A DNA stretch of 63,486 nucleotides, filler included, from Collodictyon triciliatum (GCA_043381765.1; 7 parts of 7 records of this genome joined end to end with filler, not necessarily neighbours in it), one strand, 5' to 3'; positions 1 to 58,659 are shown, counted from the whole stretch's first letter. The notes: generated by a model not told the origin, from the sequence alone. Program-made: numbers and translations.

Positions 1-140
1 AAAAGAAAAAGAAAAAGAAAAAGAAAAAGAAAAAGAAAAAGAAAAAGAAAAAGAAAAAGAAAAAGAAAAAGAAAAAGAAAAAGAAAAAGAAAATGAAAAT
101 GAAAATGAAAATGAAAATGAAAATGAAAAAGAAAAAGAAA
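1..140 (+). repeat. (GAAAAA)n/(GAAAAT)n microsatellite at the window start
   Basis: Directly visible hexamer tandem repeat that switches unit at about 91. Confidence 0.95.
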
Positions 141-220
141 CGATAAAATAAAAACAACCATGGACAAGTGGAAAGAAAACTATAATAAAGAAAACAGCAT
201 TTTTTCTGAATAAAACTAAG

Positions 221-627
221 GGTGTTCTGGTCCTTACAAAGACATCAAACAAGGATCTCTCAAACGAATATTCCAGGACTTCGCTCTCCAGAAAGTCTGC
301 AAGGTTGTGCTTGGCAAGATACAGCCCCACAGTCAGGCCAAAGTCGATCAGCAGTGTCGTGTACAACAAGATGCGCATCATTCGTCACACGCCTATACCA
401 ACTGATTATCCTCAACTTTCTAGTCCGGGGAGCGGTGCGCCTGGTTGCAGATTACCTGCTTGGCGTGTGTTGATCGTGGCTGTGATTCTCGAGCCTCTTG
501 CACACACCACGAGATCCAAGCACAAAAGAAAATTGATGAATACAAGCCATTCATATCATTTGCGGAATTTATAGATCAACTCATATCAAATAACACAAAT
601 GATCGTAATACCGATTGTCCTGTATAA
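221..627 (+). CDS. Possible 3' end (last two exons) of a gene of unknown function
   Basis: Open frame CSGPYKDIKQGSLKRIFQDFALQKVCK...QQCR, GT..AG intron at about 361-423, then SGERCAWLQITCLACVDRGC...DCPV*. No recognisable domain. Confidence 0.3.
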
Positions 628-1011
628 AATATTTTTATAGCATATCATATTTATTTATGCAATTCAATTTTGTGGCATTAAGCGCATAACAGCCTTCACG
701 ACACACGCAGCAGGTCTCTGCAACCAGGCGAACGGGCATCTGCCGACCGAACTCAAAGCACAGACTCACCCAACACACAGAAGCCAACCCAGGATCGAGA
801 ACCCCGCGACTCTGCAATGTCCGAAGACGGTTTGATCTGATTCGATGCACGGCAGCCAAGACTTTTCAAAACCCCCAGGAATACAAGGAAGCCCAGCCAG
901 AGACACGAAACCCATAAAACCCCGCCGCTTTTGCTTCATTCCTCTGCGCTTTGATTTCGACTTTATGTCCAGGTTTTCTTCCCGCTCACTGACGCTTTTT
1001 CCCATATGCAG

Positions 1012-4000
1012 ATGTTGGAACTTACTTTGCCTCTGGAGACAACACAGACGGGCAGTTGGGAGTCAGGACAGGCCCCTTCGAGTGCTCGTTTGTGAAGGGA
1101 ACGGGGCTTCTTGGCCATGCGCTCAGGAAGGTCTCCCTTGGATTCCGGCACTCCATGGCGCTCACGTGTATGTCCAGAACGCCTGTTTAGGCGACTTGTT
1201 CATGCGACTGCATTCTATTTTCCTTTATTACTCCTTTGTGCATAGATTCAGGGGTTCTCTACGTATGGGGCTCCTCCACGAATAACCAACTCGGTACGGG
1301 ATACAACGATCGCTCGGTCCTTTCGCCTCACAAGTTGGATATCGATGCGGGTAGTAAAATCGTGGAAATAGCAACAAAGTCAAACTTTTGTGCTGCGATC
1401 ACCGGTAATTATAAGCCAGTGCTTCGGTCAACGATGAACATGCCCTTTCCTTTCCTTTCCTTTCCTTTCCTTTCCTTTCCTTTCCTTTTCTTTTCTTTTC
1501 TGATCTTGTTCGACTCTCTTATTTGTCTATACGATATCACAATTCTGTTTTTATTTCCTTGAATGAGTTTTCTCCATCGGTCTGATACGATTTTATCGCC
1601 TTGTTGATTTTCCATTACTTTTTGTAATTTTTTTTTTTTTTGCTGAACTAAGCATATCTATGAAACAGTTCTTTCTTTATATCGATCTTTCATGTAACAA
1701 AAGCATTTTTATTATGATTTATGGCTCAGTTTCGCGGTTATAAATGAATCCAGTGTGTATATTTTTTAAAATATTTTAGATTTGGATATAACCAAGCTTC
1801 TCATTTATGAGATTAACTGAAGTTGTTCATAGAGGATGGCACACTTTATACGTGGGGATACAACGGAAATTATGGAAACCTTGGCCGTCCGGGTGATGAT
1901 GCTGTCCCGACTCCTGTGGTGGAGGGGTTTCGTGGATGTAGCATCCGATCGGTTGCTCTTGGAAACGACCACGGATTAGCACTATCCTGTAATTCGTGAT
2001 GATCATCATCTTTATTATATTAGATATCTTGTTGATATGCTCGAAACAACATCATCTGATTTACACCTGGTCTAAATTCTTCATGTTGAAGCCGATGGAA
2101 ACGTATTTGCTTGGGGAAGAGGTATGTATCAATTATTTTTTCATGAAGAAAATCAAAAATCTTTTTGGTTCATCCACTTTGCTGGAATTTCCCTCAAAGG
2201 ATTTCCCATTTATTAATCATCTCTCGCGTTCTCTATCTTTCAAATCCTAGGAGAGGAATGTCAGCTAGGGTTTGATGCTGACGTAATAGAACACGTTATC
2301 CCAAAGGAAATAGAGTATTTTTCAAGGCTTCTGGTTTGTTGTCCTTGGAATATACGACTATCATCATCGTACCGTTCCGACAGAGATATTTCTATGTTAC
2401 CCCTGCGAGTCATTGTATTCTTGAAATAGATTGAAAGACCATTCAGTAATCGAGTGACTCAAATAGCGTGCGGAAAGAATTTCTCAATGGCACTCAATGG
2501 TTATTTTTTTTCAATTAAAACTTCACTTTGATCATAATGCTAGAAAGATAAAATGTACTGTGGTGATTTTATTTTCACTCTTGATAATTTTTGATTTTTT
2601 CTGTCATCAAAGCGTCTGGAGATGTTTATACGTGGGGGTCAAATTCGGGTATTTCAAGCTAATTTTATAAACCGCAAAGAAGAAATCATTACAACTCTGT
2701 CATAATTTTTTTAATTTTTTTTTTCTGTGTGTGTTATGACCGAATCAACAGACGGACAATGCGGACATGGAAATCTTGCAGATGTACCCCAACCAAGAAA
2801 AATTGAGAAACTTGTTTCTAAATTTGTGGTTCAAATTGCGTGTGGATGGAGACATTCTTGTGCTGTTACAGGTTTTGCTCTGTTGCTCTTCAAAACTGAG
2901 TTCTTCATAAAAGCGCGATAATCTAGCATGATTTTTTTTTCTGCTCAAAATAAGCGTAATCGTCAATATTCAATGTCAGATGTTGGCGAGCTTTTCACAT
3001 GGGGAGGGAACGAAGCAGGTCGCTAAGCAAGAATGAACATCACTTCATGATTCCATCATATATCCATTTCATTTTTAACCTTTTTATATTGCAACATTCT
3101 GTAAGTTTGAATCACGTCCCTCCTTTTTTTCTCTTTTCCAATATCTTTGAAATTGAATAGAGCTGTTTACATAAAAAAATAAAAAATAGGGCAGCTTGGA
3201 ACGTGCGATCGACTCATCCGTCGCACTCCGACACGCGTTTATGCATTAGCAGGAGAATCAGTCAGAGAAGTTGCCGCAGGATGGAGACATACAATTGCAA
3301 GAATAGGTACGTGAGTATTTTGAGGCTGGATTCTATTACTTTGATACTTGAATTTTTTCTAATCACCTGTTAGAAACATCACACTAAGATCAATAACACC
3401 GCTCATATCTACATGCGATAACTATTATAACTCCCTGTTGAAGACATTGGATATGTGTATGCTTGGGGAGCATGTGACCGTGGGCAGTGTGGAATAGGAA
3501 TTGAAGGAATTCAAAGAGTGGATGCTACGGGTACCGCGGAAAGCGCGTCAGCTCTCCCAACATCATCGACAAAGTCGATTCCAGTATCCCACTGCTTTGT
3601 ATGCCTTAGCTTACTCGCAAAAGAATGACAACAAGCCATACTATTCTTCTTTTATCATCGTTAATTACACTAACTTTCTCCTAAAACAGTTAGCCCCGCA
3701 GCTGGTTTTCAGGTCTCAGGCAGCGAGTTCTTTGGCCGCTGGTTACGAACATTCTATTTTAATCCCAGGTAGCTATTTGAAATAAAAATCATTCCATTTT
3801 ACTTTGAACACCCATTTATTTTAAACAGGCGATAGTGCATAAGGATAAAATATTTTAACTGCTATGGCAATAATAAAGTATCATACATGACTTGTTGAAC
3901 AGAATTACCAACGAACAATCCACTGTCGAGGGACATGTTGGACTTATTTGATGAGACAAACAGAGAGCAGTCGGGTGACATTATATTTGAACTGCATGAA

Positions 4001-6125
4001 GAAAAGCTTTATGCACATAGTGTTAGTTCTTGATTTCAGCTATATGCTTCCATACTCGATGAAATGTTTCATAAATGTGTTTATATTATGATGGTTTTGT
4101 TTATCTTATCAGCTGAGGGGGTTTTATCATACTTATGACATTACCTAACAAAATCCTTCGATTTTTCCGTTATATTAAAAATGTTCATATTAATATAGGA
4201 AATTATAGCAGTGCGATGCCCCAATTTGTCAAAATATGTAGAGACAACAGCAGTAATTATGGTTGACGAGCAAGACCATTATCATCGCAGTATGACACTT
4301 TCTATATTTCTGGAGAAATGATTCCTCTTAGACTATAGTTGCATTTTATTTATTTTAGCATATGCACAGTCCTTACTTGATCAGATACGCAATAATAAAT
4401 TTATATTCAAATCGCTTGCTTTTACTCTTCTAATTGATTATTATGCTTTTTTTTTTTTTTTGTAGGGAAATATATCGTCATGATTATGGATATCCAGCCA
4501 TATGTGTTTCGTGCATTCTTAATGTATCTCTATTCGGATGTCAATGTGGTGGAGGTCAATATCGACCCTAAACATGGAACCCTCTTTAACATGGACAACA
4601 TCGAAGTTTCCGAGGAGGAAACTCATCATTACGAAAAATTCCGAAGCTTTTTCCCGAAACCAAAGTATGAGTATCGCAGTGCCGATGTAAGTCTTGCCAG
4701 TGACCTGCTGCCCTTAGCCGAAAAATATCGCATCGTGCGCTTGAAGCAGATTTGCCAGAACTATGTCCAAGGAACATATGTACCCCCACTGCGCTTATCC
4801 CTTCACAAAGACTTGCTTCAGCTCCGTCATAATTCCGACTTTCGTGACTCATATGACGTGATATTCTCTCACAAAAAATGTGATTCGAATCTTGGAGTGC
4901 ATTCCTTCATGATGCGCACTCGTGCACCGCATTTCTACCGGCGCGTAATCGGTGAATCTACAGCCACTTACAATGTAACCTAGTCTAATTCTCCAAGAAG
5001 CGATCATATGCAGTATATTTATCTCACATAGGCTTACATGTTCAAAACTTTTAGCCAAATGCCACCAACTTCCACTCGATGGATGGAATCAATCACGAGG
5101 CATTTGTCATGGTGCTTGACTACATATACGGAGGTGCAATCAATCTAGAGAAACGACAGGAGTTGCTCTACGACTTAATTGAAGTTTTTTTTTTTCGGTC
5201 TACATGGTTTAAATGCTTACGATACGTCGTGTTAACTATGTTTCCCTTTCTCACATATATCACTGTTCTAATTATTAAAAGTCGTTTGCTTAACTTTCAC
5301 TCGAAGGTTGCAAGTGAGTTGAAAATATCACCCTTAATTAGCTACTGCGAGACATCTCTTGGGATTGACCCAAAGGTATCTTCAGATAAACACGATGCGA
5401 AGATTGGCTTAATGAATACTACACTGACCCTTCCATCTCCATAAAATTGTCATTTCGCTGTCCAAGGATGTTTTCCTGATTGAATTGATTCCATTAATCA
5501 AACCACATATCTTACAGCTACACAATGTCGCCATCATCTTAAATGAAGCCAGACGAACCAATGCAAGTCGCTTGGAAATGAGATGCTACTATATCATGTC
5601 CAGAAACATGGATGAGCTTGAAAGTACATTTTATTTCTTATTAAAGATGGCCACATCATACTGATAATATAGTTCTTTGGAAGATTTTTATATAAAATAC
5701 CTAAGAAATAACAAAGTGAGAATATAATTAGATATATCATTCCATTAAAATACCCGAGTGAATGTGTTTTGGAAAGTCAAGCACGATAAATATGTTAAAT
5801 AGATTTATTATCACAAACCTCTACCAAACAGCGATGCTAGGACTTACAGAAGAAGATTTCGAGAGGGTGAGGAATCTACGCCGAGAAATCGAGGAATTAG
5901 ACCCCGTTATTGACGACAGACGAAGGTAGTCCAGATTGCATCTTCTTTTGCACACTGTTCTTATTACTCAAATCGAAATCTCGAGAATATCACTATGTTT
6001 ATTTATGATATAATTTGTATATTTGTTTGTTTTTGTATTAATATAATCGATGTCTTAGGTCAGGAAGCCAAACAACATCTTCGTTCTGGGGCGCTATGAG
6101 GCAAAAAATATCCACCATAATATAA
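1012..6125 (+). CDS. RCC1-repeat + tandem BTB/POZ protein (probable CUL3 substrate adaptor), multi-exon; start codon not resolved
   Basis: Spliced RCC1 repeats: FASGDNTDGQLG..VSLGFRHSMALT, LYVWGSSTNNQLG, YTWGYNGNYGNLG, DGQCGHG..IACGWRHSCAVT, VAAGWRHTIA, LAAGYEHSIL. BTB1: DIIFELHEEKLYAH...FRAFLMYLYSD..LLPLAEKYRIVRLKQIC. BTB2: DVIF..VHSFMMRTRAPHF..HEAFVMVLDYIY..LISYCE. Stop TAA at 6123-6125. Confidence 0.85.
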
Positions 6126-6825
6126 GCACCACGGCAAGCGAGTGTGGGTTTCTAATTAACTGGCTTGAAGTTGTGCCCCCCTGCCATGAAAAATAAAACA
6201 GCAGAACATAAACTAGCGTGTCTGGGTGTTTTGTGCCTAGAGAAGACTTTGCGGTAAGAAGAAACTAAAAGTGAAGACATTAAGGAGCGCAGTAAGATTG
6301 TAGTCAAGGAAAATCTGTGGCCGCACTCACAGCTCAAGAGGAATTACATGCTTGAAGAGTTCAGTAGGGTATCGCGCTGTTTACACTGATATTTTGTTTA
6401 AAAAATAAATATATTCCACTTTTGCAATTAGAAAAGTGGAAAATAAATTCTCGCAGACCAACTATTTCACATCAGTCAGTAGCTTCGCAGCAATAATTTT
6501 TTTTTACATTTTTTTCTATTTTATTGTTTTTATTCGTTTTTCTTTTCGCTTTTCTCTTGAAGCACGGAAGCAAACAGCAAACAGAAAAGCAGCAGCGCTC
6601 AAAACAGCAGTCTGCAGTCATCGCAAACCAATCCGCTTACACACGGCATCCCAGAAGAACTAAGAAGCTTCCTCCAAGCTCGCGTTGCTGTTTATCTGAG
6701 CCAAAGGCAGTTGCTGGGGAGTGACAGCGCACATTTTATACATATGGCACTTTTGCTGGTGTAAACAATGAAACTAACAGAGTTTGTTCAAACCGCTTCC
6801 AAGGACCAAAAAAAGTCTGCAAAGA

Positions 6826-9800
6826 ATGAGCGATCAGCGACCACAAAGTCCTCGTGGGAAGGCCACACACTTCACCCCTGCAGAAACCCTCAGCGGGTTT
6901 GGCCTGGCCACGCAAAGAAAAAGCAGCCTCCAAAGCAATGCGCGCACAGTACTTTGCTTTTATTGAACGTTGAACTCCTTTTTTTTCTTTCATTTCTCAC
7001 TTTGTTATTTTCTTCTTTTTCTACTTCATTTCTGCTTTATCTATTATTTTATTTTTTTTTTACATAATCATTTCCTGCTGTAAGTCGGCCGCCAGCGACC
7101 GGACTCGTGTCCAAAGAACAGGCTATCTGCAGCTCAAGATGCAAGGATTTATGGGTGGTTGGAAGAAGAAATGGGTAGTCCTGCAAGGCTACGATCTGTT
7201 TGTGTTCGATGATCAAAAGGTTTGCTCTGCAGCTTTGAAATAGAAAATAGAAAATAGAAAATAAATACATACTTAAATAAAAGGAGTCAGGTAATCTGTC
7301 TGAAGTCCAGGGAACTTCACCGATTTGTTTCTGTTTCTACAAGTGTACATTTCTCTATACTGTTTTCGTCCATTCACTCATCAAGGTACGTTTGTAGGAC
7401 ACGAAGGCACGGCTGCAGGTCGATATGATCCATTCAGTCATGATATCTCCTCCTCTTGTCTTGGACTCTGTGACAAAAAAAGGGATCTCCTTTGAACTAT
7501 TTGACGGCGAGCGCTCGTATATTCTCCATACTGATAACACATCCGATGGTGAAGAATGGCTCAAAAGTTTATCAGAGTCACTGCATGATGCTAAACTTAT
7601 ATTGAATCTTTCCATGGTGAGACACCCACGTTTATCGTCATATTTCACATCACTATTTTGATTGCCACATATTGGAACTATGATAACCCTCATTTCTGCC
7701 ATCTATTTTGTGTGATTCTGTTGATATTATTTGTATAATCAGATCCAATGAATCTATACGTTAATGTGCCATCATGGTCATTTAGAATCGGGCGCCCACA
7801 AACTTTGTCAGAAATGGCTATGTCCTCGTCACAAAAGTTGATGCGAATTATACTGGTTCTATTCTTCAAATCCGCCCTGAAATCAGATGGCTGGATTTGC
7901 AGCCGGAATCATTGCTGTTTTACTCACGGGCTTCGGTGGACCTAAATGCTGTACTTCTCTCAATATATTAATACAATATTTCATACTTGAAAGGAAGAAA
8001 AAAATACAATATTGCGCGCACATCTGCCATACTTTTTTACGCACTTGTCAAGAAAGCCATAGAATCCTATGCCATTAATTATGCTTTGGAAATATCGCAG
8101 GCTGGGAGAGTCATCGACACAATCGACCTCGGGAGAACATCTATCGAAGTACCACAGAGCTTCAAGAAAGCGAATGTTTTTGCTTTTATCCTGCGCACAT
8201 CACATCACGATTACGTCATTCGAGGTGGAGCAGAGAGCCATGTTCTTTCCTGGGTGGTATCGCTGAAAAGGAACATACATCAAATCAATGTTTGTGCTAT
8301 TTATGTGATTGATGCTCCTAGTTAAACCTATACATATTTACAAGCATATCCAGACCAAAATACTCTGAAATATTTTATGATGATTTTGATAACCTTCCTT
8401 TTAATATTATTTTCCTTTGTTGCATGATCGGAACACAGAAATTCTATGAATCAAAAACGTACTGTGAGGGTCGTTTAGTTAAACAATCCAGCCTTGCATG
8501 GAAAGGAAATTCTGTCGGTTGGTTTGTACTCAAGGATGGAATTCTCTACAGATACGTGCACGACAAGGTGGAGTACTAGTGAATGAGCATTAAAAACATA
8601 TGTGTACGCCTGCGCATGATTTGTATGGAGTTTTCCCTGGGGATAGCTGTAGGGTCTGAGTGATTTTGGACCAAACTGCACCATTCATCGTGTATATATA
8701 TTATCATAAGGTAACGTAGCATTTGTTTCTTTATAGGCAACAGTCCCTGAAAAAACTGTCAGCCTCGAAGGATGCACTGTACGGTTGGTTAATGATATCG
8801 GATCCAAGCCAGGGTTTATCCTGGACAGTGTAAGTCATTCTCATACGAAGGTATCCTTGTTCAAACAAAACTTGATTGCTTAAACTCACTGTCGATGAAC
8901 AAGCTTATGATCCACAGATTAATTTTTCATTTGTTGATTTTCTGACTTGTTGAAAATAGCTGGAACGTAGTATTCGCTTCGAAGCTCCTAGCGTTGCAGA
9001 GGCAGAAGCATGGGTCAATGCCATTCAAGCATTTCTTAGCAAAGAGCAGGTCTATATCTCGTTCGTCAACTTTTTTCTTTGGTACTCTCACTTTATAATA
9101 TTCTATCCTTGATGCAACCCCAATACAAATCGAAGCAATAGATCGAGAACAGCGATTTACATATCCTGAATGTATTGTTTCACGATACACCGCCTAATAA
9201 GTGTGTATGAATAAATAGGGAGATACCGACCCCGTTATCAAACAGGGATATTTATATAAGGATCCGAAGGGTGTACTCTTAAAAGCCCGATACCGATGGT
9301 TTGTTTTGAGAAGTGCAACCCTTAGTTACTACGTAAAACCGTCAGTAAGTGATTTGGAACGTCTTGTTTTCGTTTGAGTCTCATATAGCAAACTTCATTC
9401 TTAATATGTTCTTAACTCCATATGAGTATATATGCTTCTTTTTTTTTTTAGATTACGAATTTTTTCATGCATGTTTCTATTTTTTTTGTCTTTATTTGCT
9501 ATTAAATTATTTATTCTTAACTCCATAGGATGCTGATCCAATTCACACATTCAATGTGAAAGATATATCTGTTAGTAATCCATCAAATGGAGGTGATGAC
9601 CCATCTTTCCTCCTCCACACTGCCAAGAGAAACTACGTGATGATTGCATCATCCAAGGAAGAGATGAACAGCTGGCTTCAAGCTTTGATGCAAGTTACGC
9701 AGCGGAAATCTATGAGTTGGTTTCAATCAGATATGAAGAGTTTTGAGAGGTTGAGAGGTAAAACTCGCATTCTTTACCAAACAATCAGCCTCAAACCAAC

Positions 9801-12203
9801 ATATACAAAACTTTTGAAAATTTTTATTGTTCTCGATTAATTCCATATTATGGTACCCTTAGCAACAATAATGATAATGAAAATGATATTAATGAAAAAG
9901 AAAGAATTGAGTTTTTTTTATAAAAAAAAAAAGAGCAGATCTCTATCTTGCACACAATACGTTCAAAACTTATAAAGAATACATTATTAATGGAGGAAAT
10001 GTGTCGGTTTTGTCATTTTAGCTCTCAGCTGCCCTGCACGGTTTCAGGACATTCCTATCACTGTAGAGGAAAAGATTATTCTCGGTGGCGACACAAATCT
10101 GCCTATGAGCCGACGCTCATCTGTGGCAAGTCTATGGAATGAGCCACCTCCCTGTATCGGCTTTGAATCAGACGAAGAGGAAGAGCCAACATTGATGCTG
10201 GGTGCATCACCACTGGACGCCCTTATTTTCGATGACCTGCGACAGTCCTTTGTCCGTGATCGTTCGGGAACAGTCTTAACAGTGGACACCAAATCGACTG
10301 ACCTAAGCTCTGAAGCAGGTAATGCTTCCAAATAAACAAGAAGTTTTTGTGTGGTGAGGGATTTCTCTTCTAATAAATTAGGGATATATGTGAGAATAAA
10401 GGAAAAAAAATTAGGGATATATGTGACTGAACCTGTTTTTTTACACAAGACATACTCATCGTTTAATTACATCTATCTCTATCTCTATCTCTATCTCTAT
10501 CTCTATCTCTATCTCTATCTCTATCTCTATCTCTATCTCTATCTCTATCTCTATCTCTATCTCTATCTCTATCTCTATCTCTATCACTTTTCTATTTTTT
10601 TCTTGACTGAATCACCACAGCTCATGAAAATACCGCCGGTCGTTCTGCAATTGCAGCACAGTCAACCTCAAATATCAATGTGGGAGTGTTTAGATCTTTT
10701 GATGATATATACATTGACTGCAAGTTTAAAGGCGCGACCAACGAATGGGACCAGTTCCATCACAGGTCCATTCTCAACCTGAAACCATAATCACATACAC
10801 ATACATTCGAAATCCCTTTGTGTGAATTTTTCTATCAGTAGAAATATAGAATAAATAAATAAAAAAGGAATCGCTTTGCAGTATGCGAAATATATAGAAA
10901 AATAAATACCTACATGTTATTCAAACTCATAATTGCAACTATTTTTTCAGAGACCAGTCGTCACCCGCGGTGGTGATAGACACCGGGGCAACAACAACGC
11001 GCTTTGGTTACGCCGGCTACGAACACCCGGTCGCAATCTTCCCCACATCGCTCGGCTACGTAGAAGACAGCATTGCTAAGAAGGGGCACACATCTTTGAA
11101 GCAACACGCAGCAGCTCAGATAAAACCTTACTACTTTGATTCGCCATTAGACCCGAAGCGAAGCCCGAATTGGGATGACTTGATTCAAATCTGGCAACAC
11201 GGCTACGACAACCAACTGAACCTTCATGCAGAAGAGCGCGGGGTTTGTTTCTATTCACAGTCTCTTTATACTTGCTTTTATTTTTGTTGTGTTGGTATTT
11301 ACTTGTTTGTTGTTGTTGTTCTTAATCCTTTGACGTTGTTGAATGCTACGCCTCCTCATGTTTCGCCAGGTGCCTTTTTGGAGCGTGGGGCTGACTCATT
11401 GCAAAATTATTACCACCATACCTCCCTCTTCTTTTTTCTTTTTTTTTCTTCCTTTCTTCCTGAAAACTTCAAACTTATTCGCAAAAGGTACTGATGGTAG
11501 AACCTGTGGGAATATCCATGAAGTCGCGTGAGAAACTCCTGGAAATATTCTTCGAAACCTTTCAAGTGCCTTATTATGCTTTGAAGCCACCATCAATCCT
11601 TAGTCTCGTAGCGCTTGGGAATCAATCTGGACTTGTGGTGAACTGGGTACATTGTTTTATATTTTTTTTATGTTTAATTATCAACCAATAGCCGTGGGAT
11701 TAAGTCTCCAACTTGGCATCCACTACCATCGGCGTAATCGAACCTCGTGTAGGGAAGCAAGCTGCAGATAACAGCAATCTCGAACGGCTACATACTCCCG
11801 CACCAGACAGTCGTCCGCAACTTTGGTGGCTTCGACTTGACGGAAATGATGCACACACTCATGAACCGAGAGAGGTCGCTTGAGAGCTACTTTGCAAAGA
11901 GCGACGCCTGCTGGGTCAAAGAAAACCTGTGCTATGTGTGCAATAACTTCCAGCAGGAGATAGAGGCTTCTTCTGGCCAACCCATGAAGCGGGTCACCAA
12001 AACGCCGTACACAAACCAAGAGTTGTCCATCTGCGCCGAGCGCTTCATCTGTCCAGAGGCTTTGCTGGACCCGTCCCTCCTGCGTGTGGATAGTCTCGGG
12101 CTTCACGAGCTTGTCTACGACACCATCACGGGTTGCGACATTGACATTCGTCGCTCGCTTTTCACGAACATTGTGCTGAGTGGCGGGAACACACTCTTCC
12201 CAG
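6826..12203 (+). CDS. Four tandem PH domains fused to a C-terminal divergent actin-fold domain; 3' end cut by the contig end
   Basis: Exons join in phase without stops. PH1 RTGYLQLK..WKKKWVVLQG..EEWLKSL; PH2 RNGYV..RWLDL..LSWVVSL; PH3 EGRLVKQ..WFVLKDG..EAWVNAI; PH4 KQGYLYK..RYRWFVLR..EMNSWLQAL. After a linker comes actin-like VVIDTGATTTRFGYAG, NWDDLIQIW, REKLLEIFFETFQVP, VKENLCYV, ERFICPEAL, CDIDIRRSLFTNIVLSGGNTLFP. Confidence 0.85.
10473..10585 (+). repeat. (CTCTAT)n intronic microsatellite
   Basis: Visible hexamer repeat; it produces the spurious YLYLYL ORF. Confidence 0.95.
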
Positions 12204-12227
12204 GTGAGATTGCCGACGCATGAAACC

Positions 12228-12265
<38 letters not shown>

Positions 12266-12413
12266 TGCCTCATTATTTACTTTTTAAGCTCTATTTGCAT
12301 GTTTGTGTTTCTGTGCTTTTCTGCATTTTACAAGCTACTCACGAAAAAAATAAGAAAAACTCTGAGGAAAGCTCACCCTCGCCTGGCACACCTGAGTTTT
12401 TTTTTTTTTTTTT

Positions 12414-12513
12414 NNNNNNNNNNNNNNNNNNNNNNNNNNNNNNNNNNNNNNNNNNNNTTAATTAATTAANNNNNNNNNNNNNNNNNNNNNNNNNNNNNNN
12501 NNNNNNNNNNNNN
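12414..12513. other. Artificial contig linker N44-TTAATTAATTAA-N44
   Basis: Exactly 100 nt with stop codons in all six frames; identical at six places in the window. Confidence 0.97.

Positions 12514-12606
<93 letters not shown>
12514..12606 (+). repeat. (TTA)n microsatellite at contig start
   Basis: Visible. Confidence 0.95.
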
Positions 12607-12731: not shown

Positions 12732-15700
12732 TATCGACATATACAAGACAAGGAAACAAACCGGCGCATTACGTTGATTTATGACCCGGCCACAACCTCT
12801 TTCAGGGAAAGCATCTGGGCCGATGTTAGTGTTGGCTCCATTGTCAGAGTGAAAGAGAATGAAGCCATTCCCGCGGACATGCTTGCGATCAAATCAAGCC
12901 TAGAAAACCATATTTGTTATGTCGAAACGTCAAACTTGGATGGGTTAGTGCTTTTTGTCTATCTTTTCTCCTCTATTACACCCCTTTTCCATTTGGCTCG
13001 TTGAAAGGAGATAGTTCATGATTATGCAGAACATATCTTCCGGCTTATCTCTCTATACCAAAACAAATCAGCAACGCCGGACCTTTTGACTTTCAAGAAA
13101 TCTAGTTTTTTCTAATTCCCAATTGTTTATTCTTCTTTTTTGTTAACTCGTTCCTTGGAGTACTTTGCCTGGGATTCAGTCTAATTCGTATCTCTCTCCG
13201 CAATAACATGCATGCAATATGTTTCTAACAAAATCTTTTGCAACTGTTCAGAGAAACAAACTTGAAAATAAGAGGAGCGCATCCTTCGATAAACAAAATT
13301 GTCAGCAATGTTGATAACCATTCTGGCATAATAACGGCCATAATCGAGTGTGAGCATCCAAACAATGCGCTCTATAAATTCGAAGGAAACCTCAAAGTTT
13401 CGACATCTGTTATTCCTCTTGAGGCCAAGCAGCTTCTACTTCGAGTAAGCACACTCCCGAAAGATATTCCCTTCTCTATCCCACAAGAAGCTAACTGAAT
13501 TTCCATGCAACTATTCCATGTTAATTAATTGATATTTGATATAATAAAAAAACATCATGTCCCAGCCACACATCCGCGAAAGAAAATGTATACTCAGGTG
13601 CATGTATTTATAATTGCAGGGTTGCACATTGCGGAACACTGCTTGGGTCGACGGCATAGTTGTTTTCACCGGCCATGAAACAAAATTAATGATGAATACA
13701 ATGTTTGCCATCACAACAACCATAATTAAAGGATTCTATTTGAATGTTTTCTTTTCTATTGACAAAAAAGGCATCGGTATGAATAAGCTGTTTGATGGTT
13801 ATCACTTTGTCCAACACATTTCATCCAAGTAATGTGTTTTTTTCTTCCATTATACAACAGGAATTCAAAAATTAAAACGAGCAGTATCGAGCGAAACCTG
13901 AACAGAAACATTTTATCCCTGTTTTTGTTTTTAATAGCATTGTGTGTAGTGTGTGGAAGCCTTTCAGGGGATTTTTTGGTAGGGCAATATCGTTTTAGTT
14001 TTTTTTTTTAATCTTACATCCGTTTGGGAAAGCAAAATAAAATTGAACCTGTTATATTATTCTCACACCCATTTTTCCACCAGAGAAGGAATAAAAACAA
14101 GTTGTGGTACTTGAGTTATGATTCCGGAGACAAGCCAGTGGAGGCTGGCGGATTGGCCATTCTGACATATGTGATTCTGTTCAACACATTGATACCTATA
14201 TCGCTCTACGTCTCAATAGAGCTCGTTAAAGTTATCCAGGCGTATTTGATTGATTGTGATGTGAACATGTATGACCCATTCAGTGATACTCCAGCAAAGG
14301 CGAGGACATCGAACCTTAGTGATGAATTGGGAGAGGTATAATAATTTATATGAGCAAAAAACTTATTTATAGTGCCAAATAAAAAAAAAACCCAATAGGA
14401 TGCCGATATTTAAACGAGAAAATTCATATCACTGTGGCCTTCTCTCTAATTGGGCGTTATTCACAAAGATACAGTACATATTCTCGGACAAGACCGGTAC
14501 ATTGACACAAAATATTATGGAATTCAAAATGTGCAGTATTGCTGGTGTGGCCTATGGAACTTTATCGAACAATAATTCATCAAAGGTTGATCTTGGAATA
14601 GAATTCAAACTCATACTGGTTGATTTCTCAAATATATGAATCTCACTGCCTACATTTTAGAGGAGTTACAAGAACGAAGCATAAATCTTGGATGATTTGA
14701 AAAATTGTTTTTTAACTATTGTTTAATCTTCTCAGGAATATTTCTTCGAAGACCCTCGAATATTCGAAATCCTTAAAAACTCCAAAAAGCAGGAATTTCA
14801 TCACGTTTCGGAATTTATCATGCATATGTCTCTCTGCAGTACAGTATTACCCGTTAAGGATGACCTAGAGCCTGAAAACCATGCTAGTATGATATACAAG
14901 TGTCCACTGTTCATCCCATGTTTTTTGTATACTGTAGAAACACCCTTTTATATTTATAATGACGGCGATTTCCATGAAAATCACATCTATTTCACTTTTT
15001 TCTCCTAATTGGTTCCATAGAAATAGTTTATCAAGCTGCCTCACCTGATGAAGCAGCTCTCTTGAATGGTGCTCGCTACTTTGGATTTGCGCTCAAGGTT
15101 AGAAAAACTATCAACGTGTTCATAACTATTTTATCAAATCCTCCAAGCTTTTTTGCATTCAAAGTCAGAACTATTTCCTTCTTGTGCGTAAAAAAGTCCT
15201 TTAAGAAAAATAAACGAGATGCAAGATTTTAAATTATCTGGAATAGACCCAATATTCGTTATCTTATGGTTTCTCCAACACGATACCTTCAGAGTCTCTT
15301 ATTGCTTTTATTAACTCAAAAAAATACCACTACTCAGAGTCGCACACCCAGCCAGATTACCATCGCGACCCCTACGGGTGATGAGGATTGGGGAATATTG
15401 AATGTTATTGAGTTCAGCAGCCAAAGAAAACGAATGTCCATTATAGTTCGCTCTCCAGAGGGTATCATTGCTATATAAACCTTTATTATTATTATTATTA
15501 TTATTATTTTATTATTTTCTGATATGATACATCTTACTCAAAACGACTACGCATCGTTGATAATATCCTCAATGCTTTATAACGACATTTATTCGTGACA
15601 TTTCTTAAAAATCTACAATCGTGCAACATGCTAATAATTCTGTTTCTTAGGCCGAATATTACTTATATGCAAAGGGGCCGAGACAGTTATCCTTCCCAGA

Positions 15701-19835: not shown

Positions 19836-20786
19836 TCAGGAGATAGGGTTGACATAGTCGATTGCGTGGAGGGAGAGGAACTGGCGGGGGTCGGAGCGGG
19901 CGGGATCGGGCAGCACCCTGGCGGGCGGAGGCATGAGGGCGGGGCCGCGGCGGGGGGCGAAGGGGCGGGGGCGGAAGGCGTCGGCACTTGTGGAGCGGAA
20001 GTTTGCGGCGGTTGTCGGGGGCTGCAGCGGGTTGGACGGGGCGCGGGGCAGAGGCGGGTCGGCGGCGGTGTGGGGGTGGAGGACGTCGTGGAGCGGGTGG
20101 GCGTGGGTCAGGGCGGTGGCGGGGCGCAGGGAGGGGTGGGGGCGGCCCGCGTAGAGCTGGTGCGGCGGGAGGGCGGCTGCGTGGGGGGCGGTTGCGGGGT
20201 CCACACGGTGATGGCGATGGTGATGATGGTGATAAGACAGCTGCGTGGCCGTGCGGGGCGGGTGCGGGGCGGCCTGCGTCCACACGTGCGGGTCGGCGTG
20301 GTCGCTGCCGGGCGCCGCGGCGGGTGTGCGGTGGGCGCCGCGGCTCGCAGGGCGGAAGTCCGTGTGCGCCGTGGATCGCAGCGTGCGGGGCGGCGTGCCG
20401 TCCTCCGAGGGGTACGCGGCCGTGGGCAGCGCTTCGGCGAAGGGGCTGCGGCGTGTGCCTCGGCTGCCCGGTGGCGGCGGTCCGGTGGTGCTGGGTGCAG
20501 AGGCAGAGGCGGAGGCGGGCAGCACGCTCGGCACGGGCGGCGCCTCGCTGATGCGCTGCGTGGTCGGCCGCAGCGGCAGGCTCGACTGGAAGATCCCTGC
20601 GCCGGCGTGGGTCGGCGTCCGGCTGCGTGCATCGGCATGGCCTGTTTCGAAGCTGCGCGGCCCCAGCGTTGCGCGGCTTGTGCTCTCGGCCACCCCGTCT
20701 GCGCGGAAGGTGCTGTGTTGGCACGTGCAGACGCCCCCGAGGCATGTCGAGGCGCTGCAGCTGGCCGGTGCGCGGGGGCGTGTCAT
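19836..20786 (-). CDS. Intronless GC-rich Pro/His/Ala-rich protein (316 aa), putative SAXO/MAP6-like microtubule-binding (Mn-motif) protein
   Basis: ATG at 20786 (MTRPRAPASCSASTCLGGVCTCQH...), open to the stop at 19836. N-terminal Cys cluster and recurring S/T-x4-F/Y motifs (RSTAHTDF, RTATQLSY, RSTSADAF, LSLHAIDY). Confidence 0.5.
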   Translation of the reverse strand: MTRPRAPASCSASTCLGGVCTCQHSTFRADGVAESTSRATLGPRSFETGHADARSRTPTHAGAGIFQSSLPLRPTTQRISEAPPVPSVLPASASASAPSTTGPPPPGSRGTRRSPFAEALPTAAYPSEDGTPPRTLRSTAHTDFRPASRGAHRTPAAAPGSDHADPHVWTQAAPHPPRTATQLSYHHHHHRHHRVDPATAPHAAALPPHQLYAGRPHPSLRPATALTHAHPLHDVLHPHTAADPPLPRAPSNPLQPPTTAANFRSTSADAFRPRPFAPRRGPALMPPPARVLPDPARSDPRQFLSLHAIDYVNPIS

Positions 20787-20815
20787 GGCACAGGCGGTTC
20801 TTTTCTGCTCCTGCT

Positions 20816-21225
20816 GTTTGTTTGTTTGTTTGTTTGTTTGTTTGTTTGTTTGTTTGTTTGTTTGTTTGTTTGTTTGTTTGTTTTTTTGTTTTTTTGTTTT
20901 TTTGTTTTTTTGTTTTTTTGTTTTTTTGTTTTTTTGTTTTTTTGTTTTTTTGTTTGTTTGTTTGTTTGTTTGTTTGTTTGTTTGTTTGTTTGTTTGTTTG
21001 TTTGTTTGTTTGTTTGTTTGTTTGTTTGTTTGTTTGTTTGGTTGGTTGTTTGTTTGGTTGTTTTGTCTGTTTGTTTGCTTGTTTTTTTTCTTTGTTTTGT
21101 TTGTTTGTTTGTTTGTTTCTGCTCCTGCTGTTGGTTTTTCTTTGTTTGTTTGTTTGTTTGTTTGTTTGTTTGTTTGTTTGTTTGTTTGTTTGTTTGTTTG
21201 TTTGTTTGTTTGTTTGTTTGTTTGC
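20816..21225 (+). repeat. Compound (TTTG)n / (TTTTTTGTT)n microsatellite
   Basis: Visible; it extends several ORFs spuriously (FVCL and NKQT runs). Confidence 0.95.
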
Positions 21226-21550
21226 TTTGTTCGTTTGGTTCTTGCTTCTTCGTCTGTCAATCCGGCGGAAGCAGGTGTGTTTTCTTCATGGTAAAAAACA
21301 GGAGCTGATTCATCTCTGGTTTTTGTTCTGCAACGGATTGGCGGTTGGCCGCATTTGGAGGTGAAAGGGATGGCCGCGTTTGGATGGTGTGGTTGTTGTA
21401 TTCGGTAGGGAAGGGAGGAAGAGCGTGTCTGAGATTTATGGTCGGTGCTGTCTTTCGCTTTCGTGGGGTTTGCGTAATCATTGGGTGGGTTGCTGTCTGG
21501 TGTCTCGATGAAAGGAAAAAGAAAGAAAAGGAATTGGATTGTTGTGTGTC

Positions 21551-24918: not shown

Positions 24919-25018
24919 NNNNNNNNNNNNNNNNNNNNNNNNNNNNNNNNNNNNNNNNNNNNTTAATTAATTAANNNNNNNNNNNNNNNNNNNNNNNNNN
25001 NNNNNNNNNNNNNNNNNN
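24919..25018. other. Artificial contig linker
   Basis: N44-TTAATTAATTAA-N44. Confidence 0.97.
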
Positions 25019-37430: not shown

Positions 37431-37530
37431 NNNNNNNNNNNNNNNNNNNNNNNNNNNNNNNNNNNNNNNNNNNNTTAATTAATTAANNNNNNNNNNNNNN
37501 NNNNNNNNNNNNNNNNNNNNNNNNNNNNNN
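37431..37530. other. Artificial contig linker
   Basis: N44-TTAATTAATTAA-N44. Confidence 0.97.
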
Positions 37531-45979: not shown

Positions 45980-46079
45980 NNNNNNNNNNNNNNNNNNNNN
46001 NNNNNNNNNNNNNNNNNNNNNNNTTAATTAATTAANNNNNNNNNNNNNNNNNNNNNNNNNNNNNNNNNNNNNNNNNNNN
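45980..46079. other. Artificial contig linker
   Basis: N44-TTAATTAATTAA-N44. Confidence 0.97.
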
Positions 46080-52563: not shown

Positions 52564-52663
52564 NNNNNNNNNNNNNNNNNNNNNNNNNNNNNNNNNNNNN
52601 NNNNNNNTTAATTAATTAANNNNNNNNNNNNNNNNNNNNNNNNNNNNNNNNNNNNNNNNNNNN
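52564..52663. other. Artificial contig linker
   Basis: N44-TTAATTAATTAA-N44. Confidence 0.97.
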
Positions 52664-58559: not shown

Positions 58560-58659
58560 NNNNNNNNNNNNNNNNNNNNNNNNNNNNNNNNNNNNNNNNN
58601 NNNTTAATTAATTAANNNNNNNNNNNNNNNNNNNNNNNNNNNNNNNNNNNNNNNNNNNN
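58560..58659. other. Artificial contig linker
   Basis: N44-TTAATTAATTAA-N44. Confidence 0.97.

What the first reader, a model, noticed from the sequence alone, without database searches (positions are those of the whole stretch)
6826..12203. Quadruple-PH / actin fusion protein with a degenerate ATPase site
Seen: one continuous, phase-compatible exon chain links four PH domains to an actin fold (LR|ALSC...SEA|AHEN...HHR|DQSSPAVVIDTG). Aligned by eye to actin, Q137 becomes P (LKPPSILSL vs VAIQAVLSL), D154 becomes N and H161 becomes Q (VNWGSKLQIT vs LDSGDGVTHT), and the D-loop/H73 region is remodelled. Known: actin fusions are rare (e.g. Dictyostelium filactin, filamin repeats plus actin), and PH domains commonly bind phosphoinositides. 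Inference: a membrane-recruited, probably hydrolysis-poor and non-polymerising actin-like module that could cap or nucleate filaments or titrate actin-binding proteins at PIP-rich membranes. I know of no described protein with this architecture, and it is my best candidate for a novel system here.
Basis: partly seen in the sequence, partly recalled or inferred. Interest (0 to 1): 0.85.

Follow-up and report, generated by a model that had tools for sequence, protein, structure and literature searches.

The report
Four-PH, actin-like fusion protein gene
This is a real, expressed protist gene that joins four membrane-binding PH domains to a divergent actin-like domain whose ATP-hydrolysis site is degenerate; it belongs to a small, uncharacterised family known so far only from relatives of Diphylleia and Rigifila.

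Summary
Fifteen GT..AG-bounded exons (6826-12203, + strand) give one open frame of 947 codons: an N-terminal tail, four PH modules, a roughly 150-residue linker and an actin fold.

- **Transcript support.** Intron-less contigs from two public runs confirm four junctions (10318>10621, 10765>10951, 11242>11488, 11646>11753). They also show the transcript running on into a 3' exon that is missing because the contig ends at 12413.
- **Orthologue.** A 1006-aa Diphylleia rotans transcript protein is colinear with the model at 59% identity. It carries four PH matches plus Actin in Pfam.
- **Family.** Paralogues with PH plus Actin occur in D. rotans and Rigifila ramosa.
- **Degenerate site.** The ATPase site is degenerate and this is conserved across the family: phosphate-2 loop DSGDG becomes NWGSK, Q137 becomes P, H161 is lost, G15 is lost and subdomain 2 is remodelled.
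- **Selection.** All 8 differences between the window and the RNA contigs are synonymous.
- **Placement.** The actin-like domain sits in an orphan clade that shares a G-N-R-L-Q-I type loop. Its best solved relatives are conventional actins.

Function is inferred, not shown. I read it as a membrane-recruited, non-hydrolysing actin-fold interaction module that does not polymerise in the canonical way. No publication was found, although PH plus Actin clusters also exist in arthropod database entries.

The parts
6826..6948 (+). Exon 1: start codon and N-terminal tail (41 codons)
   Evidence: It is the first ATG after an in-frame stop. It aligns with the N-terminus of the D. rotans orthologue P0006. 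The donor is GT.
7085..7616 (+). Exons 2-3 (7085-7219, 7398-7616): PH module 1
   Evidence: GT..AG introns in phase 0. tblastn with P0006 gives 70% and 54% identity. Pfam PH on exon 3 has E 0.041. The WKKKW basic stretch lies at strand 2 and the C-helix Trp is kept.
7786..8289 (+). Exons 4-5 (7786-7950, 8101-8289): PH module 2, without the basic motif
   Evidence: Pfam PH on exon 5 has E 0.13. The orthologue model shows seven strands plus a helix at residues 170-283. The C-helix Trp is kept.
8439..9049 (+). Exons 6-8 (8439-8567, 8737-8829, 8960-9049): PH module 3, without the basic motif
   Evidence: tblastn gives 73% and 66% identity for exons 6 and 7, and exon 8 was not hit. There is no Pfam PH hit on exon 6. 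The orthologue model shows a PH-like strand and helix pattern at 287-381. The C-helix Trp is kept.
9219..9757 (+). Exons 9-10 (9219-9344, 9529-9757): PH module 4, with a K...K-A-R-Y-R-W-F basic motif
   Evidence: Pfam PH gives 21.9 bits on exon 9 and 28.1 bits on exon 10. The motif is kept in three orthologues. tblastn gives 72% and 66% identity.
10022..10765 (+). Exons 11-12 (10022-10318, 10621-10765): linker of about 150 residues
   Evidence: There is no Pfam family on exon 11. The orthologue's linker 487-639 has pLDDT under 50. The LSCPxR motif after PH4 and an acidic D-D-x-aromatic-I/V motif before the actin domain are kept in three orthologues. The 10318>10621 junction is shown by an RNA contig whose loose end equals window 10286-10315.
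10472..10585 (.). (TCTA)n microsatellite inside intron 11
10951..12203 (+). Exons 13-15 (10951-11242, 11488-11646, 11753-12203): actin-like domain up to actin residue ~308
   Evidence: Pfam Actin scores 45.9, 29.4 and 79.1 bits. RNA joints are seen at 10765>10951, 11242>11488 and 11646>11753, all GT..AG. Exon 15 is 65% identical to P0001.
12204..12413 (+). Start of intron 15 running to the contig end; the last coding exon or exons are not in the window
   Evidence: RNA contigs of X1 and X2 leave the genome at 12204 and run on for 204 and 227 nt. The continuation reads G-LGTRLQTDV, which is like PGFGHRLQIDV of P0006. The 30-mer is absent from the window. tblastn finds no match to P0006 residues 939-1006.
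12414..12513 (.). Artificial contig linker (N44-TTAATTAATTAA-N44)
   Evidence: The same linker occurs at five more places in the window.

Best explanation
**Shown.**
- This is a genuine, spliced, expressed and selectively maintained gene.
- It encodes an N-terminal tail, four PH-fold modules, a linker of about 150 residues that is predicted disordered in the orthologue, and a C-terminal actin-fold domain.
- Its 3' end is missing from the contig.
- The named relatives point to a protist of the CRuMs group, because the closest is a Diphylleia rotans orthologue at 59% identity.
- It belongs to a multigene family of PH-array plus actin-like proteins found in D. rotans and Rigifila ramosa transcriptomes.
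- Its actin-like domain lies in an orphan clade of actin relatives with a rebuilt phosphate-2 loop: x-G-N/S-K/R-L-Q-I with a one-residue deletion, in place of D-S-G-D-G-V-T-H.

**Inferred.**
- PH4, and probably PH1, carry the basic strand1-strand2 motif typical of phosphoinositide binders, so they would bring the protein to PIP-rich membranes.
- The actin fold keeps D11, G13, K213/E214 and G301/G302, so it may still hold a nucleotide.
- It lacks Q137, H161, D157, G158 and G15, so it should hydrolyse ATP poorly or not at all.
- Subdomain 2 and the D-loop are remodelled. In the orthologue the helix that floors the barbed-end cleft reads K-Y-A-A-R where an actin has I-L-S-S-L. It is therefore unlikely to enter filaments in the canonical way.
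- It most likely works as a membrane-tethered actin-fold interaction module. In that role it would be a pseudo-ATPase adaptor for actin-cytoskeleton partners or for its own paralogues, held on a flexible leash below the membrane.
For: **Gene structure.** The model has 15 exons, all introns GT..AG, and an open frame of 947 codons.

**Expression and splicing.** Contigs of runs X1 and X2 skip introns 12, 13 and 14 at GT..AG. One loose end equals the end of exon 11, and two loose ends continue the frame past 12203.

**Purifying selection.** 8 of 8 differences between the window and these contigs are synonymous.

**Orthologue.**
- P0006 is colinear with the model at 553/932 = 59.3% identity, with no break at 13 of the 14 junctions and a 3-residue gap at one.
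- tblastn recovers 12 colinear pieces from 7112 to 12205.
- P0006 has four PH stretches (161.5 bits) and Actin (221.2 bits) in Pfam.
- Its AlphaFold model shows four seven-strand-plus-helix modules, a linker with pLDDT under 50, and an actin domain mostly above 85.
- Foldseek best matches are actins, with TM 0.82-0.90 on the target.

**Family.**
- PH plus Actin was found in 8 of the 46 proteins I Pfam-scanned out of the 150 best phmmer hits. The 46 include every hit of 590 aa or more.
- 7 of those 8 are named D. rotans or R. ramosa, and one is an unnamed Logan contig.
- P0161 and P0175 are further members.

**Site table (window plus 8 relatives).**
- Kept: D11 9/9, G13 9/9, K213 9/9.
- Lost: G15 9/9, D157 9/9, G158 9/9.
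- Q137 is lost in 7/9 and H161 in 8/9.
- Subdomain 2 is 0-23% identical to an actin, against 26-47% for subdomains 1 and 3.

**PH motifs.** The basic motif and the helix Trp are shown.

**Clade.** The 22-row clade has SH-aLRT 99. Window plus P0006 has 99, and adding P0175 gives 98. The shared loop is shown.
Against: - No experiment or ligand-aware computation bears on lipid binding, nucleotide binding, hydrolysis or polymerisation. All of these rest on residue comparisons and on roles of actin residues recalled from the literature.
- The window's own C-terminal 68 or so residues, including the cleft helix, are not available, so that point rests on orthologues only.
- The junction 9757>10022 and all junctions upstream of it were not tested with RNA of this organism. 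They rest on splice signals and on the orthologue alone.
- The two runs are recorded only as 'RNA? (a guess)' and come from one study.
- The W-loop G-Y-x-L-P-H and many core residues of subdomains 1 and 3 are kept, so some actin-like contacts may survive.
- Two family members (P0012, P0072) keep Q137.
- No named Arp1-Arp11 sequences were in my trees, so 'orphan clade' is not a proven exclusion from a known Arp class.
Confidence: 0.6

Rival explanations
1. The actin-like domain still engages conventional actin through actin-actin contacts and acts at PIP-rich membranes as a filament-end cap or a nucleation seed, anchored like an Arp.
For: - The fold is actin-like.
- Subdomains 1 and 3, on the barbed-end side, are better kept than subdomain 2: 36% and 47% against 9% in the window. 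From recall, this is the pattern seen in Arp2 and Arp3.
- The W-loop G-Y-x-L-P-H is kept.
Against: - In the orthologue the cleft-floor helix is K-Y-A-A-R where an actin has I-L-S-S-L, and the C-terminal H-R-K-C-F is absent.
- The D-loop is shortened and unlike actin's.
- No binding test could be run.
Confidence: 0.25
2. The paralogues form hetero-oligomers among themselves, an Arp2/3-like or dynactin-like assembly of actin-fold subunits. Each would be tethered to the membrane by its own PH array.
For: - There are at least four paralogues in D. rotans (P0006, P0014, P0015, P0146) and at least three in R. ramosa (P0007, P0010, P0072/P0161).
- They fall into two deep subclades that both include D. 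rotans genes.
- The rebuilt loop is conserved rather than decaying.
Against: There is no evidence of co-expression or contact. Only one paralogue is visible in this window. No complex prediction was obtained.
Confidence: 0.1
3. Artefact: two neighbouring genes, a PH protein and an actin-like gene, wrongly read as one, or a chimeric assembly.
For: The junction 9757>10022 was not covered by RNA of this organism, and the assembly is fragmentary.
Against: - An RNA contig joins exon 11 to exon 12 and exon 13.
- Independent Trinity transcripts of D. rotans encode the whole chain, and a third colinear orthologue is P0175.
- No stop codon or start signal lies between the parts.
Confidence: 0.02
4. A decaying actin pseudogene fused by chance to a PH gene.
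For: Catalytic residues are lost. In the genome the frame reads G-E-I-A-D-A-stop if one reads through the donor at 12203.
Against: - 8 of 8 differences to the RNA contigs are synonymous.
- The same substitutions are conserved across paralogues and species.
- The transcript is spliced at 12203/12204 and continues in frame.
Confidence: 0.03

Closest known systems
Filactin (Dictyostelium discoideum Fia)
   Same: An actin-fold domain at the C-terminus of a long protein with an unrelated N-terminal extension (PMC2441452, passages seen).
   Different: Filactin's actin domain is described there as 'extremely homologous to conventional actin' and it is classed as an actin. Here the domain is only 31-34% identical to actins and has a degenerate catalytic site. 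The N-terminus here is four PH domains.
Actin-related proteins with poor or no ATPase activity (for example Arp4, Arp7, Arp9 and Arp8 of chromatin remodellers) - named from recall
   Same: An actin fold used as a non-polymerising interaction module with altered nucleotide-site residues.
   Different: Those proteins are nuclear, have no PH arrays and form defined orthologous classes. Here the best 60 solved-structure matches are all conventional actins, not Arps. Orthology to any Arp class was not tested with named sequences.
Orphan 'G-N-R-L-Q-I-V-P-V' actin-like proteins with long N-terminal extensions (for example Mastigamoeba balamuthi P0016, and unnamed ENA and Logan proteins)
   Same: They share the rebuilt phosphate-2 loop, the one-residue deletion and the loss of Q137. 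They group with the PH-actin proteins at SH-aLRT 99.
   Different: Their N-termini have no Pfam domain. By eye they are proline-rich or low-complexity. They mostly keep D154, which the window has as N.
PH plus Actin database clusters of arthropods, and a nematode 'PH domain-containing protein' (P0176, Steinernema hermaphroditum)
   Same: - Atlas clusters of 95 and 74 members carry Actin in 100% and PH in 76% and 61% of members.
- P0176 has a D-I-G-E-R-L-N-I-V-P-V loop.
- A tree holding P0176 with the clade is not rejected: p-AU 0.889, and the constrained tree is 47.8 lnL units better than the quick free search.
   Different: - Pfam finds no PH in P0176 even at E 10.
- My model of its pre-actin part is below pLDDT 50.
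- Its branch is very long, at 2.0.
- No arthropod sequence was in hand.

Kinship with the CRuMs family is therefore open.

Membership tests
Actin family fold (Pfam PF00022) | Significant, colinear match to the Actin profile | tested here: met
   Exons 13, 14 and 15 score 45.9, 29.4 and 79.1 bits on profile positions 3-94, 97-148 and 155-339 of 410. The rest of the profile lies in the missing 3' exon or exons.
Actin family fold (Pfam PF00022) | Four-subdomain actin three-dimensional fold | tested here: met
   This was tested on the orthologue P0006, not on the window protein. AlphaFold residues 644-1004 are mostly above pLDDT 85. Foldseek hits are actins at target TM 0.82-0.90.
Conventional (polymerising, ATP-hydrolysing) actin | Phosphate-1 loop D11-N-G13-S14-G15 | tested here: not met
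   The window reads D-T-G-A-T. G15 is lost in 9/9 family rows, while D11 and G13 are kept in 9/9.
Conventional (polymerising, ATP-hydrolysing) actin | Phosphate-2 loop D154-S-G-D157-G158-V-T-H161 | tested here: not met
   The window reads N-W-G-S-K-L-(gap)-Q. D157 and G158 are lost in 9/9 rows.
Conventional (polymerising, ATP-hydrolysing) actin | Catalytic Q137 and H161 (roles recalled from the actin literature) | tested here: not met
   Q137 becomes P. H161 becomes Q or I, depending on where the gap is placed.
Conventional (polymerising, ATP-hydrolysing) actin | D-loop and H73 region of subdomain 2 | tested here: not met
   H73 becomes P. Subdomain 2 is 3/33 identical to an actin, and there is a four-residue deletion in the D-loop.
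Conventional (polymerising, ATP-hydrolysing) actin | Hydrophobic barbed-end cleft helix and C-terminus | not testable with these tools
   This part of the window's gene is off the contig. In the orthologue P0006 it reads K-Y-A-A-R where an actin has I-L-S-S-L, and H-R-K-C-F is absent.
Arp1-Arp11 orthologous classes | Grouping with named members of one class in a phylogeny | not tested
   No named Arp sequences were available to my trees. Indirectly, the best 60 of 159 solved-structure matches are all conventional actins at 202.5-212.2 bits. The same holds for clade member P0016.
PH domain (Pfam PF00169) | Four PH folds: seven strands, a C-terminal helix and an invariant helix Trp | tested here: met
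   The orthologue has 4 PF00169 stretches at 161.5 bits and four strand-plus-helix modules. In the window, exons 3, 5, 9 and 10 give PH hits at E 0.041, 0.13, 2.7e-4 and 3e-6. The Trp is present in all four helices.
Phosphoinositide-binding PH domains | Basic K-Xn-[K/R]-X-R motif in strands 1-2 (motif recalled from the literature) | tested here: inconclusive
   PH4 has K...K-A-R-Y-R-W-F, conserved in 3 of 3 orthologues. PH1 has K...W-K-K-K-W. PH2 and PH3 lack it. Actual lipid binding was not tested.
Filactin | Actin domain nearly identical to conventional actin | tested here: not met
   Identity to actins is 31-34% and the active site is degenerate. The filactin description is from PMC2441452.
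CRuMs PH-array/actin-like family (defined here) | Colinear PH modules, linker and an actin-like domain with the x-G-N/S-K/R-L-Q-I loop; groups with D. rotans and R. ramosa members | tested here: met
   The window is 59.3% identical and colinear with P0006, and 37% identical with P0175. The loop is shown. The clade supports are 99, 98 and 96.

The most novel reading that the evidence does not exclude
The PH-actin proteins and their G-N-R-L-Q-I relatives may be an ancient, so far unnamed class of actin-related proteins. The class would be defined by a rebuilt phosphate-2 loop with a conserved basic residue at position 158 and by loss of the hydrolytic Q137 and H161. It would have been tethered to membranes by PH domains from early on, expanded in CRuMs protists, kept with other N-termini in Amoebozoa, and possibly surviving as PH-actin proteins in nematodes and arthropods. 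On this reading it is a membrane-anchored, nucleotide-locked actin-fold scaffold distinct from Arp2/3 and dynactin.
Probability: 0.3. Interest if true: 0.75.

Novelty: new variant of a known kind. Interest (0 to 1): 0.6.

Why it matters
Actin and the Arps are among the best-charted protein families, and domain fusions to an actin fold are rare. This finding adds a conserved, expressed, multi-paralogue family that wires a phosphoinositide-reading PH array directly to a catalytically degenerate actin fold.

The family sits in a poorly studied deep branch of eukaryotes: phagotrophic flagellates and filose amoebae. It offers a testable case of an actin-fold pseudo-enzyme working at membranes. If the link to the animal PH plus Actin entries holds, it also points to an overlooked Arp-like class. 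Finally, it gives a concrete gene model for annotating this fragmentary genome.

Tried and rejected
- **Whole genome.** None is held for this window, so the missing 3' exon and any paralogues could not be sought in the assembly.
- **Sequencing runs.** No RNA holder is listed as RNA on record. Three runs of one study were offered, all marked 'RNA? (a guess)'.
- **Laying reads.**
I then laid 10586-12413, as the tool suggested.
  - Junctions upstream of 10318 were therefore not examined.
  - Run X3 laid nothing.
  - Stretches without cover are not used as evidence.
- **Read-through at 12203.** Reading through as G-E-I-A-D-A-stop was considered. I rejected it because both RNA contigs leave the genome at 12204 and stay in frame.
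- **Homologue search with P0006 residues 1-640.** It found only its own cluster.
- **Profile search with A2.** It scored only 8000 word-sharing candidates and returned 4 proteins, so it is not a census.
- **Complex prediction.** The job pairing the actin-like domain with an actin was not folded, on the tool's policy grounds, and was counted. No binding statement rests on it.
- **AlphaFold of the last 507 residues of nematode P0176.** The first 126 residues are below pLDDT 50, so nothing can be said about a PH fold there.
- **Atlas search with the D. rotans actin domain.** It gave only generic actin clusters.
- **Earlier findings of this scan.** Nothing was found by place, by sequence or by words.
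- **Rfam.** No match in the window.
- **Literature.**
  - Five full-text searches gave no paper on a PH-actin fusion, and I saw only the listings.
  - For PMC2441452 I read passages.
  - Supplements were not opened.
- **First FastTree.** It needed two changes for the PH label. The IQ-TREE run needs one on the unrooted tree, but with the actin outgroup the non-PH group nests inside at weak support, 85. A single origin of the fusion is therefore not shown.
- **Filactin membership.** Rejected; see the membership test.

Full report
**What the window is.** The 63,486-base window is not one molecule. Six identical linkers of 44 N, TTAATTAATTAA and 44 N, plus one run of 161 N, join separate contigs. 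The finding lies on the first contig, 1-12413. The sequence is eukaryotic, with about 37-43% G+C here and short GT..AG introns. No whole genome is held for it.

**Checking the observation.** I rebuilt the exon chain from the stop-to-stop frames and the sequence.
- Fifteen exons run from the ATG at 6826 to 12203. All 14 introns are GT..AG and 106-302 nt long, and every phase fits. The joined frame is 2842 nt, 947 codons, without a stop.
- Pfam on single exons finds Actin in exons 13, 14 and 15 at 45.9, 29.4 and 79.1 bits, on consecutive profile positions 3-94, 97-148 and 155-339 of 410.
- Pfam finds PH in exons 3, 5, 9 and 10 at E 0.041, 0.13, 2.7e-4 and 3e-6. Exons 4, 6 and 11 gave no PH or Actin hit.

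**Transcript evidence in this organism.**
- The run search listed three runs of one study, none recorded as RNA.
- Contigs of X1 and X2 skip 10766-10950 in both runs, 11243-11487 in X2 and 11647-11752 in both runs. Each skipped stretch is bounded by GT..AG.
- One X2 contig carries 198 further letters before 10618. The 30 nearest letters equal window 10286-10315, the end of exon 11. This shows the 10318>10621 junction.
- A loose end resembling a template-switch oligo (my recall) and the intron-less joints indicate that these runs are cDNA.
- Both runs continue for 204 and 227 letters beyond 12204. The continuation reads in frame G-LGTRLQTDV, like P-G-F-G-H-R-L-Q-I-D-V in the orthologue, and is absent from the window.
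- The gene therefore goes on into an exon that the contig lacks.
- The contigs differ from the window at 8 places, and 8 of 8 are synonymous.
- Junctions upstream of 10318 were not examined with RNA.

**Relatives.**
- Exon 15 alone found a 604-aa EukProt protein, P0001, at 65% identity, carrying Actin and PH.
- The cluster look-up names it Diphylleia rotans and adds a 1006-aa isoform, P0006.
- P0006 has Actin at 643-1004 (221.2 bits) and four PH stretches (161.5 bits).
- tblastn of P0006 on the window gives 12 colinear pieces from 7112 to 12205 covering its residues 50-938. Nothing matches residues 939-1006.
- The joined model and P0006 are 553/932 = 59.3% identical. The alignment is continuous across 13 of 14 exon junctions, with a 3-residue gap at one.
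- A third colinear protein, P0175 (957 aa, EukProt, species not looked up), is 37% identical to both.

**Family census.**
- A full phmmer scan of 1.84 billion representatives with P0006 gave 11,109 hits at E up to 0.001, of which 150 were listed.
- I Pfam-scanned 46 of those 150, including every one of 590 aa or more.
- Eight carry PH plus Actin: P0001, P0007, P0010, P0012, P0014, P0015, P0072 and P0146.
- Seven of the eight are named D. rotans or Rigifila ramosa. P0012 is an unnamed Logan contig.
- P0007 adds two C2 domains.
- The other 38 are tandem actins, actins merged with unrelated domains, or N-terminally extended actin-like proteins without a Pfam domain.

**The PH array.**
- The AlphaFold model of P0006 has mean pLDDT 73.5 and used 36 alignment rows. 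It shows four modules of seven strands plus a long helix at about 50-161, 170-283, 287-381 and 390-487.
- In the window, P0006 and P0175, all four helices keep the hallmark Trp.
- PH4 has K...K-A-R-Y-R-W-F at strands 1-2 in the window, K-A-K-Y-R in P0006 and K-P-K-Y-R in P0175. PH1 has W-K-K-K-W. PH2 and PH3 lack such a motif.
- That this motif marks phosphoinositide binders is recalled from the literature. Binding itself is untested.

**The linker.**
- P0006 residues 487-639 are below pLDDT 50, apart from a short helix at 618-625.
- Two short motifs survive in all three orthologues: R-x-L-S-C-P-x-R after PH4, and an acidic D-D/E-x-aromatic-I/V-D/E stretch about 20 residues before the actin domain.

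**The actin-like domain.**
- Foldseek matches of the model are conventional actins, with target TM 0.82-0.90 and 31-34% identity.
- The best 60 of 159 solved-structure sequence matches are all actins, at 202.5-212.2 bits.
- I aligned the window and eight relatives with actins and numbered them from an actin whose D-N-G-S-G, Q137 and D-S-G-D-G motifs I checked.
  - The window has D11, T12, G13, A14, T15 and R18.
  - It has P at 137 and N-W-G-S-K-L-gap-Q at 154-161.
  - It has P at 73, keeps K213/E214 and has G301/G302/N303.
- Across the nine rows:
  - D11, G13 and K213 are invariant.
  - G15, D157 and G158 are lost in all nine.
  - Q137 is lost in 7 of 9 and H161 in 8 of 9.
  - Position 158 is K or R in 7 of 9.
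- Identity to an actin is 0-23% in subdomain 2, against 26-47% in subdomains 1 and 3.
HMMER puts the gap at 161 and MAFFT at 160. Either way the His is gone.
- In the orthologue the helix that floors the barbed-end cleft reads K-Y-A-A-R where an actin has I-L-S-S-L, and the terminal H-R-K-C-F is missing. The window's own copy of this part is off the contig.

**Wider clade.**
- In a FastTree of 158 actin-domain rows, the PH-actin proteins fall in a 25-row clade with support 97. The other 16 rows are N-terminally extended proteins.
- All 25 share the one-residue deletion and a G-N/S/T-K/R/S-L/T-type loop. Q137 is absent in 23 of the 25, the exceptions being P0012 and P0161. In the 16 the loop reads D-x-G-N-R-L/M/F-Q-I/V-V/L-P.
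- One of the 16 is Mastigamoeba balamuthi.
- Their N-termini have no Pfam domain and by eye are proline-rich or low-complexity.
- An IQ-TREE run on 42 rows, with 20 actins as outgroup, gives the following supports:

| Grouping | SH-aLRT |
|---|---|
| 22-row clade | 99 |
| window + P0006 | 99 |
| window + P0006 + P0175 | 98 |
| seven-member PH-actin subclade | 96 |
| second PH-actin subclade (P0014, P0015, P0146) | 100 |
| non-PH group nested within the PH-actin proteins | 85 |

- A single origin of the fusion is therefore possible but not shown.
- No named Arp1-Arp11 sequences were in these trees.

**Beyond protists?**
- The profile search returned a 1834-aa Steinernema hermaphroditum protein, P0176. 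UniRef calls it 'PH domain-containing'.
- Its actin-like domain has D-I-G-E-R-L-N-I-V-P-V.
- Pfam sees only Actin in it, even at E 10.
- Its branch is very long, and the quick tree leaves it just outside the clade.
- The AU test does not reject holding it with the clade: p 0.889, and the constrained tree is 47.8 lnL units better than the quick free search.
- My model of its last 507 residues is below pLDDT 50 over the first 126, so the PH question stays open.
- The ESM Atlas lists two mostly arthropod clusters of 95 and 74 members, with Actin in 100% and PH in 76% and 61% of members. These are leads only.

**How it most likely works.**
- Shown: one expressed, constrained protein with a 4xPH array, a flexible linker and an actin fold whose hydrolytic residues and phosphate-2 loop are replaced in a conserved way.
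- Inferred:
  - PH4 and PH1 bring it to phosphoinositide-rich membranes.
  - The actin fold may still hold a nucleotide but should not turn it over.
  - With subdomain 2 and the cleft helix altered, it should not polymerise like actin.
  - It would then serve as a tethered interaction module for cytoskeletal partners or for paralogues.
- The main rival is end-capping or nucleation of real actin filaments. It remains possible because subdomains 1 and 3 and the W-loop are better kept. I could not test binding, because the complex job was not folded.

**Known or new.**
- Five full-text searches found no description of a PH-actin fusion. I saw listings only.
- Filactin is the nearest described fusion, but its actin domain is near-canonical (PMC2441452, passages).
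- I rate this as a new variant of a known kind: an actin-related protein with a novel, conserved membrane-reading N-terminus and a distinctive degenerate site.

Noticed in passing
window 12414-12513, 24919-25018, 37431-37530, 45980-46079, 52564-52663, 58560-58659; 62134-62294: The window is a chain of separate contigs joined by N44-TTAATTAATTAA-N44 linkers, plus one 161-N gap. Neighbourhood across these points means nothing.
   Followed up: partly
window ~1190-5700, + strand: The upstream neighbour on the same contig looks, by eye, like an RCC1-repeat plus BTB-domain gene: frames with ...VWGSSTNNQLGTG... and two BTB-like stretches. No tool was run on it.
   Followed up: no
window 12760-12960, + strand (next contig): An open frame with ...VETSNLDG... 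looks, by eye and from recall, like the actuator region of a P4-type ATPase (flippase). It starts mid-gene at the contig edge.
   Followed up: no
window 10472-10585; 12228-12263; 12515-12605: Three simple repeats: a (TCTA)n microsatellite in intron 11, a run of about 35 A just after exon 15, and (TTA)n at the start of the next contig.
   Followed up: no
window 20000-21250: A G-rich block of about 0.8 kb is followed by about 400 bases of (GTTT)n-type repeats. The 20001-22000 bin has G+C 0.54 and GC skew +0.29. There is no Rfam match anywhere in the window.
   Followed up: partly
P0007 (Rigifila ramosa, 1242 aa): A paralogue carries two C2 domains ahead of three PH stretches and the actin-like domain. 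This is a second kind of membrane-binding module on the same scaffold.
   Followed up: partly
P0087, P0101, P0016, P0042 and relatives: Sister proteins with the D-x-G-N-R-L-Q-I-V-P-V loop have long proline-rich or low-complexity N-termini, with runs of PPPPP, instead of PH domains. P0016 is Mastigamoeba balamuthi and the other three are unnamed.
   Followed up: partly
P0065, P0079, P0132, P0144, P0049, P0116, P0148: Several long database proteins join a near-canonical actin to RhoGAP, CRAL-TRIO, C1, NACHT or Sec23/VWA domains. They may be merged gene models and were not examined.
   Followed up: no
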